From positions 32,001-96,000 of the IMG/VR virus record IMGVR_UViG_3300000228_000004: 64,000 nt of DNA; one strand, written 5' to 3'. The stretch is from a virus. Shown here in pieces: positions 5,124 through 50,828 of this stretch (position 1 is its first letter; each line of letters opens with the position of its first letter). Both the position numbers and the translations under genes were made by a program. The notes under the pieces are model-generated. The model was not told the DNA's origin. It ran no database searches and saw only the letters and a program-made list of their open reading frames with translations.

Positions 5124-5528
5124 TTAGAAATCACCAGCCTTAAATTTTTCCCAATCAATTATTGATTTCAGTGTCCATCTCATAGAGTCAAGACCTTTTA
5201 GAACTATTTCGATCTGTTCTAATAGGTCTGTCACCTCTTGAAGTTTTTTCTTTATCATTAGGTATTCATAGTCTTTTTCTATGAAAGATTTAATCTCAGC
5301 ATTATTAAGAGTGTAGTTGAAATCATTTTTATAGTATAGAAATCTTTCTTGCCATTTATTATCTAGTTCAAAAGAATAAGTCGTGTGTTTTTTCTTAATG
5401 TTATAATACATTGATTGATAAAACCCCAATATTTCTGTGTGCTTCCTGAGCCTATCAGCTATATCCGTTGTGTCGAATTTTATAAAATCATAATACTTTT
5501 CGAATACCTTCTCCATAATCAATCCCAA
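5124..5528 (-). CDS. uvsY: UvsY recombination mediator
   Basis: Helical ~134 aa, C-terminus WTLKSIIDWEKFKAG matching the UvsY pattern; near uvsW as in T4. Confidence 0.75.
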   Translation of the reverse strand: MGLIMEKVFEKYYDFIKFDTTDIADRLRKHTEILGFYQSMYYNIKKKHTTYSFELDNKWQERFLYYKNDFNYTLNNAEIKSFIEKDYEYLMIKKKLQEVTDLLEQIEIVLKGLDSMRWTLKSIIDWEKFKAGDF

Positions 5529-6004
5529 AACATTTTCGATGCTATGATACTATAAATTTCTTTTCGTGTATGGTCTTCAGTTGAAGAAACATTCAAAAAT
5601 TTACCATCTTCACCGTAATCAACGACATATTCATTTTCGATCCTGAGTGATTCAAATAAGTCAACTATTTTGTTGAGTAGTTTTTCATCCTCTTCTGCCC
5701 CGACATAGTGGCTTTGGTGCCATTTTTCAGCTCTTTCCTTATACATTTCCCTGACTACTTCATCAGCGAAAGAATAGTCATACCACCTATGTCTCCAAAT
5801 TACACTTCTATAACGCCAGAAGTTCTTTAACCCAGCTACCATATCATATCTGAAAAAATCATAAATACCACCAAAACAACGGTGAAGTATAATTTCAACT
5901 TTTTCTAATGATGTAAACTCTTGAAAATGTTTATCGAACTCTTCTACCAAATAGTCCGCCATTTTATTCTTTTCAATTTTCATTATATTCCAACTCCGTT
6001 TCAC
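5519..6004 (-). CDS. Hypothetical protein
   Basis: ORF track, operon context. Confidence 0.55.
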   Translation of the reverse strand: MKRSWNIMKIEKNKMADYLVEEFDKHFQEFTSLEKVEIILHRCFGGIYDFFRYDMVAGLKNFWRYRSVIWRHRWYDYSFADEVVREMYKERAEKWHQSHYVGAEEDEKLLNKIVDLFESLRIENEYVVDYGEDGKFLNVSSTEDHTRKEIYSIIASKMFWD

Positions 6005-43135: not shown

Positions 43136-43451
43136 TGGTGGGCATGGCGGGTAACGATCCCGCGTCCAAGAATTTTTTCTGTTTTGAAATTAACCTTACG
43201 GTTGGCGATTGCCTACAAGTTTTTGATTTAATTTTTTACAAAAATTATAAAAATATGAAACGCATTGAAATGTTAATCTTGTTCGGTTAGTTCGTTTGGC
43301 AATGAAGTGAACTACTCTTCAAAGGATTAAGCTACTTGAACCATCCCTGTATAATTTATATTGTTTTCATCTATTTTTGTTTTGAGGTTTAACTTCTCCA
43401 AGTACTTGTTTCTACACATAATAAAACTCCTGTCGATACCATTTCACGCCC
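43136..43451 (-). ncRNA. ssrA: tmRNA; tag ORF 43327-43368 encodes ENNINYTGMVQVA*
   Basis: 5' GGGCGTGAAATGGTATCGAC; 3' GGACGCGGGATCGTTACCCGCCATGCCCACCA; resume context AATAGAT-GAA. Confidence 0.9.
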
Positions 43452-46323: not shown

Positions 46324-47820
46324 TCACTCCCCTAAAGAAATAGCTTCTATTTCTTTTATAAGTGCATTTTTATCTTCCCATATTTTAGGGATTACTGATA
46401 ACATATTTTCTGAAAACCCAGCAACTTCTAAAACATCATGAGAAAGCTTCATTGGGGTCGCGCCACCATACCCCTGAAGGTTCCAAAATAGGAATTTTGT
46501 GTTCGGGCTTAATTTTTTGTAATCAGTAACCATATCTCTAAAAGGTTTTCCGTGCCCGACTTGATTTTCTTGCATATCGGTGAATATCACAATCTTATCA
46601 ACTTTGGTTTTTGTTTTTATCAAATCAGTCATAGCCCCACCAAGGTCTGTACCGCCACCTTTGGTAATAGTCATTCTGATGAACTCCATAGGTGAACCAT
46701 CTATTGAAATTTGTCTCGAATTGTCCGCCCAAAGATAAGCCAATGTTTTCTCTTTATCTAACCCACATAACATAGAAGCCATTAAAGTTTTACCAATCAT
46801 AAACGGTGAAACTTTTTTGTATTCACATCCCATTGAACCAGATTCATCTAATAGGATGGCTACAGATTCACCTTCTTCGACAATTGGTATATTTTTTGAA
46901 GAGTATATGAACCCTTGTTCTATAGCCTTCAAAAGTTTTTTATGTCTAAACATATCAATAGAATTTATGATTCTAACCTCATTATATGCGTACACGAATC
47001 TAAAAGGGAGTAATTTAGAATTTAACACGGCTTTTTCAGATGACAATAATTCACATAACATACCGAATGCTTCATCATCTATACCAGATTCAACCATATT
47101 CTTGATGTTCTTCAATGCAGCCATATACCCCAATTTTCTTTCTGAAAGCATTGACTTGTAGAGAATAGCTCTTTCTTCACCAGTTGAACTAGCATTAACA
47201 GTTTGCGCAGTATTGATATTAGGGAGTTTGTTCTCTAACGCCATTTTAAACATCAATCGTTGTTCATCGTCTTTAGGTGTTGGGTGGGATATATTCACTA
47301 AATTGGAAACTTTCACAGAACCATTACCAAAATACTTTTTCAGCTGATACGAGCCCCACTTTGTTTCCAAGGAAATCTTCACTGCTTTTCTTAGAGAGTT
47401 CGGGATCATCATATCTGGGTTTCTTGAATTCCATAACGCGACCATCTCAATCGCGTCATCTGGTCTAAGCATCGTTTTGTCTAACGCGTGCTTCATAAAT
47501 GTTTCGCCTTTTACATTTTCCGCTAAAATGGTTCCAATAAAATGAGAAATAGAACGCAAATTACCAACTGTTCTAGCATAAACCATAGATTTGGCTAGAA
47601 ATTCTGCGTGTTCTGGGTTATTAGTGATATACCCTTCAATTTTATCTAATCTTTCTTTTTCAGTTTCGTAAAACGAATCAGTTCCATTTAACATAGAATT
47701 GAGTATCACGGAAACAACTTCACCTTTGAAATTATCCCTAGAGAATCCTGACATACCTGAATAATTCACATCATCACGGTTTTTTGGGTTTGTTTTGATT
47801 TTTAAATTGAATTTTGACAT
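46324..47820 (-). CDS. rsr: Ro60/Rsr TROVE-domain RNA-binding protein with vWA domain
   Basis: FYE, LAK...YAR..GNLRS, RPDD, YQLKKY, SHPTP, GYMAALKN, S..LPFRF..AY, LDESGSM, GGTD, FTDMQ. Confidence 0.92.
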   Translation of the reverse strand: MSKFNLKIKTNPKNRDDVNYSGMSGFSRDNFKGEVVSVILNSMLNGTDSFYETEKERLDKIEGYITNNPEHAEFLAKSMVYARTVGNLRSISHFIGTILAENVKGETFMKHALDKTMLRPDDAIEMVALWNSRNPDMMIPNSLRKAVKISLETKWGSYQLKKYFGNGSVKVSNLVNISHPTPKDDEQRLMFKMALENKLPNINTAQTVNASSTGEERAILYKSMLSERKLGYMAALKNIKNMVESGIDDEAFGMLCELLSSEKAVLNSKLLPFRFVYAYNEVRIINSIDMFRHKKLLKAIEQGFIYSSKNIPIVEEGESVAILLDESGSMGCEYKKVSPFMIGKTLMASMLCGLDKEKTLAYLWADNSRQISIDGSPMEFIRMTITKGGGTDLGGAMTDLIKTKTKVDKIVIFTDMQENQVGHGKPFRDMVTDYKKLSPNTKFLFWNLQGYGGATPMKLSHDVLEVAGFSENMLSVIPKIWEDKNALIKEIEAISLGE

Positions 47821-47881
47821 TATTTTACCTTAGTTCTAATTGAGTATTAGACGATTGAAATCGCACCGCATTGTCGGACGA

Positions 47882-48062
47882 ATGAGTTTTTTAATTATTG
47901 TTAATATGGATGAAATTGAAAAAGAGTATTTTTTGCGTCCTACCATTAGACGACCTCACTTCTCGAAGATAGCGAGGGAAGGATTCGAACCAACATTTCA
48001 TGCTCCCAATGCGATGTAATCTTTCCCTGTAATCCCATATTAACAATAATTAAAAAACTCAT
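47882..48062 (-). ncRNA. Y RNA (YrlA-like) with a circularly permuted tRNA-like domain
   Basis: 28-bp perfect closing stem, GATTACAG..AGATTACATC motif, T-loop GGTTCGAATCC, loop-closed acceptor CCTCGCT/AGTGAGG, D-arm GTCTAATGGTAGGAC; adjacent to rsr. Confidence 0.85.
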
Positions 48063-48182
48063 CTTTAAATAGATGAAATCGACTAAGAAGGTTAGAGCGG
48101 TGGTCAACACGGTGAATATAACTCTTATTATTTTCAAGTAATGATGTATTCTTAGTCTGTAATTCTATTTAAAGATGAGTTT
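48055..48182 (-). ncRNA. Y-RNA-like module 2
   Basis: 19-bp closing stem; AATTACAGACTAAGAATACATC ... TCTTAGTCGATTTCATC. Confidence 0.75.
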
Positions 48183-48184
48183 GG

Positions 48185-48426
48185 TATCAAAAGTTGAGAT
48201 GAAAGCATTAAAGAGTTGACTCCTGGAAGCCTTTTAACCGAGTGAATTACCAATTCGGCGATTCTCTTTTACCCAAGAGAACAGGGGTATCTACCCATTT
48301 ATCCGCCAATCTGTCCGCTTCAACCTATTTCAAATGAAGAGCGATTTAGCAACGCTAACAGATACAGCCCAACGCGTTTCTCTTAATTAATGATGTAATC
48401 TTTAACTGTAATTCTCACTTTTGATA
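48185..48426 (-). ncRNA. Y-RNA-like module 3 with a large multibranched insert
   Basis: Closing stem; AATTACAGTTAAAGATTACATC ... TCTTTAATGCTTTCATC; several internal hairpins. Confidence 0.75.
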
Positions 48427-48442
48427 TTTAAAGAACATAGAG

Positions 48443-48540
48443 CATATGCTCAAAAAAGAAAGATAAAATCGACAGAGAGCAGTTTAATTCAATATTGTGA
48501 TGTAATCTCTGGCTGTAATTCTTTCTTTTTTGAACTTATG
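48443..48540 (-). ncRNA. Minimal Y-RNA-like module 4
   Basis: AATTACAGCCAGAGATTACATC ... TCTCTGTCGATTTTATC with a closing stem; first after the promoter. Confidence 0.75.
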
Positions 48541-48545
48541 TAATA

Positions 48546-48577
48546 ATTATATAGTTTTAAACTTAAAATTAACTTAA
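48546..48577 (-). promoter_or_regulatory. Promoter of the Y RNA-rsr operon
   Basis: TTAAG..TTTAAG..TATAAT immediately 5' of module 4. Confidence 0.7.
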
Positions 48578-48946
48578 TTAATTGTGGTCGGGTGGTATTG
48601 AACCGACTGGTCTATATGCGCGAAATGAAAACCTTCAAAGCACCTACACAATTCCAACATTCAATAAATACCGTATTTGATTAATTATTTAATCACCTTA
48701 TTATGTATACAAGTAGTATACCTAACTTTCACTTAAAAACACCTTAAATCCAAACCTTTTTAAAAATGTTCTTCATTTTTTTAAACAAATCTGGGGTATT
48801 GAAGTCTGTTCGATATTCAACCCCTATTTTATTCTCGCTCAAACCAACTTCAAAGTCAGATTTTTTCATAGAACTTTCGTTTATTATTTTTTCAGTATCG
48901 AATATTTCTGATAATTGAGAACCTTTTATATTCAGGGTATGTTTTT

Positions 48947-50554
48947 TCATGCCTTATCCTCAAATATAGCAACTTCTGTTGTTAATAACATACCAGCAAT
49001 AGAACTAGCATTAATAAGGGCAATTCTTTCGACCTTCAATGGGTCAATGACCCCTGAGTCAAAAAAGTTTTCAATTTTCCCAGTAGAAGCATTAAAACCG
49101 TACTCCCACTGATTTTCGCCCCCGTAATCCATAACATCTGAAGATATATCCAATATTTCATCATAAGAATATCCAGCATTATCTAAAATCGTTTTGAAAG
49201 GGGATAATATAGATTCAAATATGACTTGTTTCCCTCTTTCTTCATCTGAAAGTTCTCTTTCTAATGACCCTAAACCATCCATTAGGGACAATGAAGCATG
49301 GAAGAACGCGCTACCTCCCCCAACTACTATCCCCTCTGAAATTGCCGATTTAGTGGCTTCAACGGCATCATCAAATCTATCTTTTTTCTCTGACATTTCA
49401 AATTCTGTTTGCGCGCCAACTTTTATGGTCGCAGCCCCTCCAGATAATCTAGAAATCCTTGTTTTTATTTGGTTTTTGAGTTCCCCATCATCCATATTCT
49501 GAACTTGAAGTTTGAGACCATCAATCGTCAAATTTATGATTTCTTTATCTCCGCCACCATTCACTATAACGGTGCTCTGTGAATTTATGATAACCTTCTT
49601 AGCCTGCCCTAGATCATTTAAATCAACTGATGCTAGAACTTTACCAGAACTATCGGAAACCAACGAAGCCCCTGTGGTTAAACAAATATCTTTCAAGAGT
49701 TCTTCTTTCATAGAACCAAAACCAGGAGCTTTCACGGGGTACACTTCGAGTATCCCCCTCATTTTATTGACTACGATAGATGAAAGAGCTTCGCCCTCTA
49801 TCTCGTCAGCTATGATAAGCAAAGGTCTTTGGGTTTTCTGAACCTTTTCTAGTATAGGGAGAATATTTATCAATTGTGAAATCTTTCCGTCGGTCACTAA
49901 AATGAACGGGTCTTCAAGTTCGGCTCTGTTTCTTTCTTGGTTAGTGATGAAATGTGGGGAAAGAAACCCTCTTCTAAATTCCATTCCTTCCGTTATTACG
50001 AGCTCATCTTTAACCCCAGTGTTTTCTTCAACTGTTATAATACCATCTTTCCCGACTGCTAGGATGGCGTCAGAAATTATTTTTCCTATTTCAATATCAC
50101 CATTCGCGGATATAGTAGCAACATTGATAATATCCCCATCTTTTATTTCTCTTGATTTTTCTATTATGAAATTTATGACATCTTTAACCGCTTGATCCAT
50201 CCCTCTTTTCAATGAATTTGGGTCTACTCCTTCATCAACCGCACTTAAACCATTTTTGAAAATTTCATTGACGAGCACAGTAGATGTAGTTGTCCCATCA
50301 CCAGCTTCGAACGCGGTATTTGAGGAAACCTCTTTCACGATTTGGGCACCCATGTCTTGTAGTTTATCTTTTAAAAAAACTTGTTGGGCGACACTGACCC
50401 CATCTTTCGTGAGGTATGGTCTTTTCCCTTCTTCGTGGATGAGTACATTTCTCCCTTTCGGACCCATAGTTACTTTAACCGCGTCACAAAGGCTTTCTAT
50501 ACCCTGAGCTATTTTATTCCTAGCACTTTCCCCGAAAACTATTTCTTTAGACAT
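48947..50554 (-). CDS. groEL: Chaperonin GroEL
   Basis: VKVTMGPKGRNV, TKDGVSVA, AGDGTTT, VKAPGFG, GIVVGGG; lacks the GGM tail. Confidence 0.96.
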   Translation of the reverse strand: MSKEIVFGESARNKIAQGIESLCDAVKVTMGPKGRNVLIHEEGKRPYLTKDGVSVAQQVFLKDKLQDMGAQIVKEVSSNTAFEAGDGTTTSTVLVNEIFKNGLSAVDEGVDPNSLKRGMDQAVKDVINFIIEKSREIKDGDIINVATISANGDIEIGKIISDAILAVGKDGIITVEENTGVKDELVITEGMEFRRGFLSPHFITNQERNRAELEDPFILVTDGKISQLINILPILEKVQKTQRPLLIIADEIEGEALSSIVVNKMRGILEVYPVKAPGFGSMKEELLKDICLTTGASLVSDSSGKVLASVDLNDLGQAKKVIINSQSTVIVNGGGDKEIINLTIDGLKLQVQNMDDGELKNQIKTRISRLSGGAATIKVGAQTEFEMSEKKDRFDDAVEATKSAISEGIVVGGGSAFFHASLSLMDGLGSLERELSDEERGKQVIFESILSPFKTILDNAGYSYDEILDISSDVMDYGGENQWEYGFNASTGKIENFFDSGVIDPLKVERIALINASSIAGMLLTTEVAIFEDKA

Positions 50555-50828
50555 TCTCTAACACCCCTAATATATTAATTTCTTGAAGAATAACGATCTC
50601 TTCACCTTCTACCGTGATCTTATGCCCACCGTGCGTTTCATAATAAATCTCATCACCGACTTTCACTTTAGTGACTTCGTCCCCGATTGATAAAATAGTT
50701 GCTTTTGTGGTTTTTTCAGTACCTGAATTAGAGCTTTCTGTTTGAAGAACAATACCAGATTCAGTGATACTTTCTTTTTCGAAAGTCTGTGCTTTAATAA
50801 TTACTCTGTTACCAATTGGTTTTATCAT
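50547..50828 (-). CDS. groES: Co-chaperonin GroES
   Basis: IKPIGNRV, TESGIVL, VKVGD, ILGV. Confidence 0.93.
   Translation of the reverse strand: MIKPIGNRVIIKAQTFEKESITESGIVLQTESSNSGTEKTTKATILSIGDEVTKVKVGDEIYYETHGGHKITVEGEEIVILQEINILGVLENV

What the first reader, a model, noticed from the sequence alone, without database searches (positions are those of the whole stretch)
46324..48577. Ro60 operon with an array of four modular Y RNAs carrying different cargo domains
Seen: promoter, then four back-to-back long-stem RNAs, then the TROVE gene. All four share ATTACAG-[helix]-AGA(T/A)TACATC ... [helix']-xxTTT(C/T)ATC, and the inner helix covaries (GGAAAGA/TCTTTTT, GACTAAGA/TCTTAGTC, TTAAAGA/TCTTTAA, CAGAGA/TCTCTG). 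The distal parts differ completely: a permuted tRNA mimic, a ~55-nt loop, a ~170-nt multibranch domain, and a ~20-nt stub. Established: Y RNAs have a Ro-binding stem and an effector module (tethering PNPase in Deinococcus), and YrlA occurs in some phages. Inference: one phage Ro ring programmed by interchangeable RNA adaptors or decoys. Three of the modules would probably be missed by YrlA models, so this is the strongest candidate for an undescribed RNA-based system here.
Basis: partly seen in the sequence, partly recalled or inferred. Interest (0 to 1): 0.88.

Follow-up and report, generated by a model that had tools for sequence, protein, structure and literature searches.

The report
Phage Ro60 gene with four Y RNAs
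An uncultured T4-like phage carries, just upstream of its gene for the ring-shaped RNA-binding protein Ro60, four small RNA genes that share one conserved "handle" but have different interiors; this extends the known Ro60/Y-RNA particle and is not a new kind of system.

Summary
On the minus strand, 47892-48539, four adjacent hairpin RNAs precede a true Ro60 (TROVE + vWA) gene. All four share one handle: a long outer stem, a 6-nt AUUACA loop, an 8-bp covarying helix, UUACAUC, then on the 3' side the helix partner, G(A/C)UUUYA and the outer stem partner. A covariance model built on relatives' copies and RNA1 finds only these four sites in the 64 kb. It finds 64 more in 84 Ro60 loci, all on the Ro60 strand, in arrays of 1-5. 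It finds none in 897 kb of unrelated viral DNA. The stems covary strongly (94% paired against about 50% in slid controls). RNA4 is a diverged YrlA-type tRNA mimic. In relatives the Rfam YrlA model aligns over this handle, so the handle is a diverged YrlA stem module, which is the proposed Ro60-binding part. RNA1 is a short hairpin, RNA3 has a 60-nt interior, and RNA2 has a ~180-nt interior with no detectable relatives or fold signal. Several Y RNAs beside rsr, in phages too, and modular Y RNAs are already published, so this is a new variant of a known kind. Expression, processing and Ro60 binding are untested. This scan has noted similar handle-RNA arrays on other phage DNA.

The parts
46324..47820 (-). 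Ro60/Rsr gene (498 aa): TROVE HEAT-repeat ring plus vWA domain with MIDAS residues D325-x-S327-x-S329, T391, D415
   Evidence: Pfam TROVE 41.5 bits. PDB sequence hits to Thermus phage phiLo Ro60 9KOP/9L5Y, E 2.4e-9. AlphaFold model pLDDT 85; the top 13 Foldseek hits are all Ro60 (phiLo, human, Xenopus, Deinococcus), TM 0.6-0.7 over the full length. Invariant columns in alignment A1.
47821..47891 (-). Spacer between RNA4 and the rsr start codon, with AAGG 8 nt before the ATG. No terminator-like site. Its first 11 nt (AAAAAACUCAU) can extend the RNA4 stem to 30 bp.
   Evidence: Sequence; terminator scan found none here; stem extension.
47892..48052 (-). RNA4: YrlA-type Y RNA. 19-bp outer stem, handle, UUACAUCG, V region, T arm (weak stem with two U-U), sealed 7-bp acceptor-like stem, D arm, A-rich linker, handle 3' half.
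   Evidence: Model R1 57.1 bits. Family consensus A4 with 35 of 39 pairs compensatory. Rfam YrlA aligns only positions 30-81 at 12.7 bits. MFE fold.
48055..48182 (-). RNA3: 19-bp perfect outer stem, handle (AAUACAUC variant), interior of about 60 nt with no tRNA-like features and no relatives found.
   Evidence: Model R1 70 bits. Fold z -8.1. No similar interior by BLAST among 60 elements.
48185..48427 (-). RNA2: 14-bp outer stem with one bulged A, handle (3' loop GCUUUCA), interior of about 180 nt. At 243 nt it is larger than any characterised Y RNA.
   Evidence: Regex and pairing scan. R1 finds the 5' half only, because the true 3' half lies 192 nt away. The MFE with correct ends gives the handle. 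Interior z -0.37. GAUAAAUGG is shared only with two other long interiors.
48444..48539 (-). RNA1: short hairpin type. 16-bp perfect outer stem (20 bp with one mismatch), handle, interior of about 26 nt.
   Evidence: Model R1 80.8 bits (it is a training sequence). Fold z -4.8. 34 of 59 family members are of this short type.
48546..48551 (-). TATAAT hexamer 7-11 nt upstream of the base of the RNA1 stem. A possible -10 element with no convincing -35.
   Evidence: Sequence. Not reported by the sigma-70 scan. The surrounding 20-mer is not repeated in the window.

Best explanation
This is a phage Ro60 (Rsr) locus with an array of four Y RNA genes, probably co-transcribed with rsr.

Each RNA carries the same handle: a roughly 20-bp outer stem, an AUUACA / G(A/C)UUUYA internal loop, an 8-bp helix and a single-stranded UUACAUC. 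This handle is a diverged form of the stem module of bacterial YrlA RNAs, the part proposed to bind Ro60.

The most likely mechanism runs as follows. The precursor is cut at or in the long, perfectly paired outer stems, which resemble RNase III substrates, so that four separate RNAs are released. Each RNA binds the outer surface of the phage Ro60 ring through the handle. The four different interiors (a tRNA mimic, a short loop, a 60-nt module and a 180-nt module) give the ring different partners or gate its cavity differently. In characterised systems a Y RNA tethers Ro60 to PNPase in this way.

Shown here: the genes, the shared structure and its covariation, the linkage to Ro60 genes, the homology to YrlA, and the Ro60 fold of the protein. 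Inferred: transcription, processing, binding, and any partner.
For: (1) The four copies are unique to this spot, with 0 expected by chance. Model R1 hits only them in 64 kb.

(2) Structure. 15 short elements (14 from relatives plus RNA1) are 89.8% paired against 45-54% when the partner is slid, and 20 of 21 pairs show compensatory changes. 53 elements are 94.2% paired, with a covariation score of 0.84 against about 0.19.

(3) Linkage. There are 64 R1 hits in 84 Ro60 loci (470 kb), all on the Ro60 strand, mostly within 3 kb upstream (a few up to 3.6 kb downstream), 1-5 per locus. There are 0 hits in 100 unrelated viral loci (897 kb). Hits occur only where Ro60 is at least 37% identical to this one.

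(4) Homology to YrlA. Rfam RF02553 aligns full-length (positions 1-114) to relatives' elements at 41.8, 41.7 and 33.4 bits. The outer stem, inner helix and UUAC fall on the YrlA stem module and its YUAY. The family consensus has T arm, acceptor-like stem and D arm with covariation.

(5) The protein is a Ro60 by sequence and by predicted fold.

(6) There is no terminator-like site between the RNAs and rsr and no ORF in the gap.

(7) Precedent. YrlA and YrlB are processed from one precursor upstream of rsr in M. smegmatis (PMC4201824). Phage phiLo Ro60 binds two upstream Y-like RNAs and host PNPase in vitro (PMC12135203).
Against: There is no expression, end-mapping or binding data.

Window RNA4 scores only 12.7 bits on the Rfam YrlA model, and its T stem has two U-U mismatches.

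The published GNCGAAN0-1G motif is not met exactly. Only a GAAU core is kept in RNA1-3, and RNA4 has GGGAUU.

The RNA2 interior shows no fold signal (z -0.37) and no conserved structure with other long interiors. A structured 'cargo' there is therefore not shown.

No sigma-70-type promoter was flagged.

In a few relatives the elements lie 1-2 kb downstream of rsr (L146, L165, L155), so co-transcription with rsr is not universal.
Confidence: 0.75

Rival explanations
1. The hairpins are not separate RNAs. They are cis-acting parts of the rsr mRNA leader: Ro60-binding sites that let the protein regulate or stabilise its own message, or 5' stabilisers.
For: They sit directly upstream of rsr with no terminator-like site in between. 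No RNA data exist to show discrete species.
Against: In relatives the same elements also lie 1-2 kb downstream of rsr or 2-3 kb upstream of it (L146, L165, L155, L148). One member is a full tRNA mimic of the YrlA type, which is a free RNA in Salmonella and M. smegmatis. Outer stems of about 20 bp resemble processing sites.
Confidence: 0.12
2. The handle is bound by some factor other than the adjacent Ro60, such as a host or phage RNA-processing enzyme. The array would then be a set of tRNA-like or decoy RNAs that only travel with rsr.
For: The locus lies in a translation-related island with 8 tRNA genes, a tmRNA-like gene and GroES/GroEL. The canonical Ro60-contact motif is only partly kept.
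Against: Strand-specific linkage to one Ro60 clade. The handle aligns to the YrlA stem module, the proposed Ro60-binding part.
Confidence: 0.08
3. They are selfish or structural palindromic repeats (REP/MITE-like) without RNA function.
For: They are tandem hairpins in an AT-rich intergenic region.
Against: The loops are conserved in sequence while the stems covary and differ completely between copies. There are no copies elsewhere in the 110-kb contig. All copies are on one strand, and one has a tRNA-like interior.
Confidence: 0.03

Closest known systems
Bacterial and phage YrlA/YrlB Y RNAs with Rsr (Salmonella, M. smegmatis, mycobacteriophages; Chen et al. 2014, PMC4201824; Rfam RF02553)
   Same: The genes lie beside rsr on the same strand, with two or more per locus. 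The 5' and 3' ends pair into a long stem with an internal loop and an upper helix. YUAY (here UUAC) follows the helix. One member has a T arm, sealed acceptor-like stem and D arm in the permuted order. One member is a plain long hairpin, like YrlB. Relatives' elements align full-length to RF02553.
   Different: The handle sequence is diverged: AUUACA-G in place of AUGCu, and a GAAU core instead of GNCGAAN0-1G. All four window RNAs fall far below the Rfam threshold (69 bits), and my model R1 does not hit canonical phage YrlAs. Outer stems are about 20 bp, against 6 bp in the Rfam model. Arrays reach 4-5 members. Some interiors are 170-270 nt and are not tRNA-like.
Thermus phage phiLo Ro60 with Yrl1 and Yrl2 (PMC12135203; PDB 9KOP, 9L5Y)
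   Same: A phage-encoded Ro60 with several Y-like RNAs directly upstream. It is the best PDB match of this protein by sequence and by fold.
   Different: Protein identity is only 18% in the structural alignment. phiLo has two RNAs, not four, and they were identified through a CGAA motif. Binding to Ro60 and to host PNPase was measured there and not here.
Deinococcus radiodurans Rsr with Yrn1, Yrn2 and the small RNAs a-d upstream of rsr
   Same: Several small RNAs are encoded upstream of rsr. The Y RNA tethers Ro60 to PNPase, which is the mechanism I infer by analogy.
   Different: The Deinococcus handle keeps both strands of the animal-type helix. Its tRNA-like part is arranged differently.
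Vertebrate Y1/Y3/Y4/Y5 RNAs
   Same: Two to four paralogous Y RNAs share a constant Ro60-binding stem and have variable loops.
   Different: They are separate polymerase III genes of 80-130 nt, with a different conserved helix sequence and no tRNA-like module.

Membership tests
Ro60 / Rsr protein | TROVE (HEAT-repeat ring) domain | tested here: met
   Pfam PF05731 41.5 bits, cut-off 23. The predicted fold matches Ro60 structures over the full length, TM 0.6-0.7; the top 13 hits are all Ro60.
Ro60 / Rsr protein | C-terminal vWA domain with a MIDAS motif | tested here: met
   DxSxS (D325, S327, S329), T391 and D415 are invariant in 39 relatives. vWA folds are matched. Pfam vWA_Ro60 gives 22 bits, below its 27.7 cut-off.
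YrlA (Rfam RF02553) | Score at or above the family's gathering threshold (69 bits) | tested here: not met
   RNA4 scores 12.7 bits, E 5, positions 30-81 only. There is no hit at this locus in the whole-contig search. Relatives' elements score 33-42 bits full-length. Accepted-looking phage YrlAs in Xanthomonas, Streptomyces and Gordonia phages also score only 31-52 bits.
YrlA (Chen et al. 2014 criteria) | Within 4 kb of the Ro60 gene, on the same strand | tested here: met
   All four lie 72-720 nt upstream of rsr on the minus strand.
YrlA (Chen et al. 2014 criteria) | tRNA-like domain: T arm, acceptor-like stem-loop, D arm, in that order | tested here: met
   Met for RNA4 only: GGUUCGAAUCC, a sealed 7-bp stem and a D-arm with loop UAAUGGUAG, aligned with 11 relatives with covariation. 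The T stem is weak, with two U-U mismatches. RNA1, RNA2 and RNA3 lack this domain.
YrlA (Chen et al. 2014 criteria) | GNCGAAN0-1G motif near the 5' end | tested here: not met
   At the equivalent place (end of the outer stem plus start of the loop, mapped through the Rfam alignment), the window RNAs read AGAAUUAC for RNA1-3 and GGGAUUAC for RNA4. Only the GAAU core is kept.
YrlA (Chen et al. 2014 criteria) | YUAY that begins the variable region after the stem module | tested here: met
   UUAC in RNA1, RNA2 and RNA4; AUAC in RNA3. It aligns to CUAc of the Rfam consensus.
Y RNA (general) | 5' and 3' ends pair into a long stem interrupted by a conserved loop or bulge, and the rest is variable | tested here: met
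   MFE folds; covariation.
Y RNA (general) | Bound by Ro60 and dependent on it for stability | not testable with these tools
   No RNA run holds the locus. This needs immunoprecipitation or gel shift.
Y RNA (general) | Size 80-130 nt (all characterised members, per PMC4201824) | tested here: not met
   RNA1 at 96 nt and RNA3 at 128 nt fit. RNA4 at 161 nt and RNA2 at 243 nt exceed the range.
Dictyostelium Class I RNAs (lead from earlier scan notes) | Short terminal stem plus an 11-nt conserved motif next to its 5' strand | not tested
   The motif sequence is not given in the text of PMC7919456, and a literal search found nothing relevant. No Rfam hit of that kind appeared at E<=10. This is a resemblance only.

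The most novel reading that the evidence does not exclude
Phage Ro60 rings are hubs served by a library of handle-tagged RNAs whose interiors are swapped freely in evolution. The library includes a class of 'giant' Y RNAs with interiors of 170-270 nt (243-324 nt overall with their stems) and no tRNA-like features. This class is the only Y RNA in the cultured Vibrio phages pv27, Va1 and phiKT1024. It would recruit a partner other than those known for YrlA and Yrn1, giving the ring a function in infection that is not yet described.
Probability: 0.2. Interest if true: 0.7.

Novelty: new variant of a known kind. Interest (0 to 1): 0.5.

Why it matters
What bacterial and phage Y RNAs do, and why one Ro60 ring needs several of them, is still open.

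This locus and its roughly 25 relatives provide a well-defined, covariation-supported handle, a working covariance model, and a catalogue of 59 elements. These fall into 34 short hairpins, 19 tRNA mimics, 5 long and 1 intermediate.

The same handle sits upstream of the Ro60 gene of cultured Vibrio phages. Binding, processing and partner proteins can therefore be tested directly at the bench.

The result also shows that the current Rfam YrlA model misses a whole phage clade of Y RNAs.

Tried and rejected
- **Rfam.** No family matches RNA1-3 even at E<=10.
- **Searches for relatives.** The single-protein search of viral contigs found nothing.
- **Half-handle pattern scan of IMG/VR.** None of the first 100 is an R1 hit.
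- **Expression.** No RNA holder is listed. The DNA contigs of four runs laid on the locus are identical to the window, so they give no natural variation to test the interiors.
- **Antisense targets.** The longest complementary stretch between each interior and the 110-kb contig is 11-14 nt, no better than shuffles.
- **Long interiors.** Alignment of six long elements gives only the handle as consensus. The RNA2 interior has z -0.37. No YrlA or tRNA hit in the Vibrio phage element at E<=0.01.
- **Promoter.** The sigma-70 scan gives nothing upstream of RNA1, and the upstream 20-mer is not a repeated phage promoter.
- **Reviews.** PMC10870794 and PMC6542706 are not held.
- **Class I RNA resemblance.** It could not be checked.
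- **Region 48575-48660 (minus strand).** I considered it as a fifth RNA or tRNA. ARAGORN and Rfam do not call it, and its fold is not better than shuffles.
Full report
**Where and what**

The window is part of a 110.5-kb IMG/VR phage contig, about 71% complete. It looks like a T4-like lytic phage, with SbcCD-like genes, ribonucleotide reductase, 8 tRNA genes and GroES/GroEL.

Every gene around the finding is on the minus strand. The 498-aa ORF at 46324-47820 is a true Ro60:
- Pfam TROVE scores above its cut-off.
- The best PDB sequence matches are the Thermus phage phiLo Ro60 and human Ro60.
- An AlphaFold model (pLDDT 85) matches only Ro60 structures over its full length. The top 13 hits have TM 0.6-0.7.
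- The vWA MIDAS residues are invariant in 39 relatives.

Between this gene and the preceding ORF (48744-48950) lie 920 nt with no ORF over 63 aa.

**The observation**

The pattern ATTACAG-N5-10-A(T/A)TACATC occurs four times in the window and in the whole contig. All four are in this gap on the minus strand, with 0 expected from shuffles.

With the right ends, each RNA folds at minimum free energy into the same architecture:

| RNA | Coordinates | Length |
|---|---|---|
| RNA1 | 48539-48444 | 96 nt |
| RNA2 | 48427-48185 | 243 nt |
| RNA3 | 48182-48055 | 128 nt |
| RNA4 | 48052-47892 | 161 nt |

The architecture is: a long outer stem of 14-19 bp (16-20 for RNA1); a 6-nt 5' loop AUUACA opposite a 7-nt 3' loop G(A/C)UUUYA; an 8-bp helix; single-stranded UUACAUC; then a variable interior.

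The RNAs are almost contiguous. RNA4's stem can extend to 30 bp by borrowing the 3' strand of RNA3's stem, which gives an alternative pairing.

**More than chance, and linked to Ro60**

The closest cultured relatives are Vibrio phages pv27, Va1, phiKT1024 and others, about 190 kb each, with Ro60 53% identical. They carry one such element directly upstream of their Ro60 gene.

Using an alignment of 39 Ro60 relatives, I fetched 15 viral and 67 metagenomic Ro60 loci. A regex-plus-pairing scan found the element only in loci whose Ro60 is at least 46% identical. Almost all copies were upstream and on the same strand.

Fifteen short elements align cleanly. In that alignment the two helices are 89.8% paired, against 45-54% when the partner is slid by 1-3 columns. 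Twenty of 21 pairs show compensatory changes.

The covariance model R1 built from them gave these results:
- In the 64-kb window it finds only the four RNAs: 80.8, 70 and 57.1 bits, plus the 5' half of RNA2.
- In 84 Ro60 loci it finds 64 sites, every one on the Ro60 strand.
- In 100 unrelated viral loci, 897 kb in total, it finds none.
- On 53 hits the structure is 94.2% paired, with covariation 0.84 against about 0.19 in slid controls.

Arrays hold 1 to 5 elements. Six loci have 4 and one has 5. In most arrays that hold a tRNA-like member upstream of rsr, it lies nearest the gene, as here. Outer stems have a median length of about 20 bp.

**What it is**

Twelve elements that carry a T-loop, RNA4 among them, give a consensus of handle, UUACAUCG, V region, T arm, sealed acceptor-like stem of 7-8 bp, D arm, A-rich linker and handle. 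In this consensus 35 of 39 pairs have compensatory changes. That is the YrlA design (PMC4201824).

Rfam's YrlA model (RF02553, threshold 69 bits) aligns full-length to relatives' elements at 41.8, 41.7 and 33.4 bits. In those alignments:
- the outer stem falls on the YrlA outer stem (cggCga);
- the 5' loop falls on AUGCu;
- the inner helix falls on uggGgaa;
- UUAC falls on CUAc, the published YUAY.

The handle is therefore a diverged version of the YrlA stem module, the part proposed to bind Ro60. The published GNCGAAN0-1G motif maps to the end of the outer stem plus the start of the loop, and here only GAAU is kept.

Window RNA4 itself reaches only 12.7 bits over its tRNA-like core, and the whole-contig search misses it. 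RNA1-3 match no Rfam family.

R1 in turn does not detect the canonical YrlA-like RNAs of Xanthomonas, Streptomyces and Gordonia phages. This is a separate sequence sub-family.

**The interiors**

- RNA1 belongs to the commonest class, short hairpins (34 of 59 elements). These are comparable to the YrlB/Yrn2 type of 'long hairpin with small loop'.
- RNA3's 60-nt interior has no detectable relative.
- RNA2's interior of about 180 nt also has no detectable relative.
- Six long elements share only the handle.
- The RNA2 interior is no more stable than shuffles.
- A short motif, GAUAAA(U/A)GG, is shared by three independent long interiors (window, pv27/Va1 and L155) and by none of the other elements. 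I cannot say what it means.
- No interior has antisense complementarity to the phage contig beyond chance.

**Mechanism**

I take the array to be co-transcribed with rsr, on three grounds:
- There is no terminator-like site between the RNAs and rsr.
- A TATAAT lies 7-11 nt before the base of RNA1's stem, but it has no -35 and was not flagged.
- The RNAs could be released by cleavage in the long, perfectly paired outer stems. This is an inference from their resemblance to RNase III substrates.

M. smegmatis YrlA and YrlB come from one precursor. Each RNA would then bind Ro60 through the handle and present a different interior. This parallels Y RNAs that tether Ro60 to PNPase in Deinococcus and Salmonella, and phiLo Ro60 with Yrl and host PNPase in vitro.

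None of these steps could be tested. No RNA run holds the locus, and the DNA contigs laid on it are identical to the window.

**Novelty**

The following are already published:
- YrlA in 254 bacteria and 22 phages, two or more Y RNAs per locus, four small RNAs upstream of Deinococcus rsr, and the idea that extra Y RNAs widen the range of Ro60 complexes (PMC4201824).
- Two Y-like RNAs upstream of a phage Ro60 (PMC12135203).
- Three abundant RNAs upstream of an Rsr-like gene in a Listeria phage (PMC12282133).

New here:
- a distinct handle sub-family that Rfam misses;
- arrays of four to five;
- outer stems of about 20 bp;
- Y RNAs of 240-320 nt with interiors that are not tRNA-like;
- the presence of this family in cultured Vibrio phages.

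Earlier notes of this scan describe many similar 'handle' RNA arrays beside Ro60-like (mostly DUF2828) genes in other phages. I took the RF02553 accession from those notes and tested it myself. Their suggested resemblance to Dictyostelium Class I RNAs could not be checked.

My verdict is a real, well-supported Y RNA array. It is a new variant of a known kind and of moderate interest.

Noticed in passing
window 43136-43451 (-): Rfam calls a tmRNA here just above threshold (50.1 bits, cut-off 47), but ARAGORN does not. A phage-encoded tmRNA-like gene would sit about 3 kb downstream of rsr, in the same translation-related island as the tRNAs and GroES/GroEL.
   Followed up: no
window 48575-48660 (-): Just upstream of RNA1 there is a weak tRNA-like shape: a 7-bp terminal stem AAUUGUG/CACAAUU, and next to it a perfect 5-bp stem GUCGG/CCGAC closing an 11-nt loop that starts UUCAAUA. 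ARAGORN and Rfam do not call it, and its fold is no better than shuffles (z -0.7). It may be a decayed tRNA or a processing signal at the head of the array.
   Followed up: partly
window 47881-48063 (-): The 3' strand of RNA3's outer stem (GAUGAGUUUUUU) can instead pair with AAAAAACUCAU just after RNA4. This extends RNA4's stem to 30 perfect base pairs. The two pairings are mutually exclusive and could order or couple processing of RNA3 and RNA4.
   Followed up: partly
window 48440-48451 (-): A self-complementary GAGCAUAUGCUC lies between RNA1 and RNA2 and overlaps the last pair of RNA1's stem. Its role is unknown.
   Followed up: no
handle of all four RNAs, e.g. window 48499-48519 (-): The handle contains a direct repeat. 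AUUACA forms the 5' loop, and AUUACA (AAUACA in RNA3) comes again right after the 8-bp helix, so the two copies start 14 nt apart. Phage phiLo Ro60 forms dimers on Yrl2 (PMC12135203). Whether the repeat means two protein contacts is open.
   Followed up: no
L001 5540-5775 (-) and L002 5519-5761 (-) (Vibrio phages pv27 and Va1): The single Y-RNA-like element of these cultured phages (about 235 nt, long-interior type) is not annotated as an RNA. In pv27 a 49-aa 'hypothetical protein' CDS (locus 5515-5664) is annotated over part of it.
   Followed up: partly
L213 2380-2475 and 2840-2948 (Xanthomonas phage MET23-P3); L211 2650-2758; L210 2455-2618: Canonical YrlA-like RNAs upstream of Ro60 genes in other cultured phages also score below Rfam's YrlA threshold (31-52 bits against 69). 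The threshold seems too strict for phage members.
   Followed up: no
window 48744-50828 (-): GroES (50547-50828) and GroEL (48947-50554) genes, and a 68-aa ORF with no family, lie directly upstream of the Y RNA array on the same strand.
   Followed up: no
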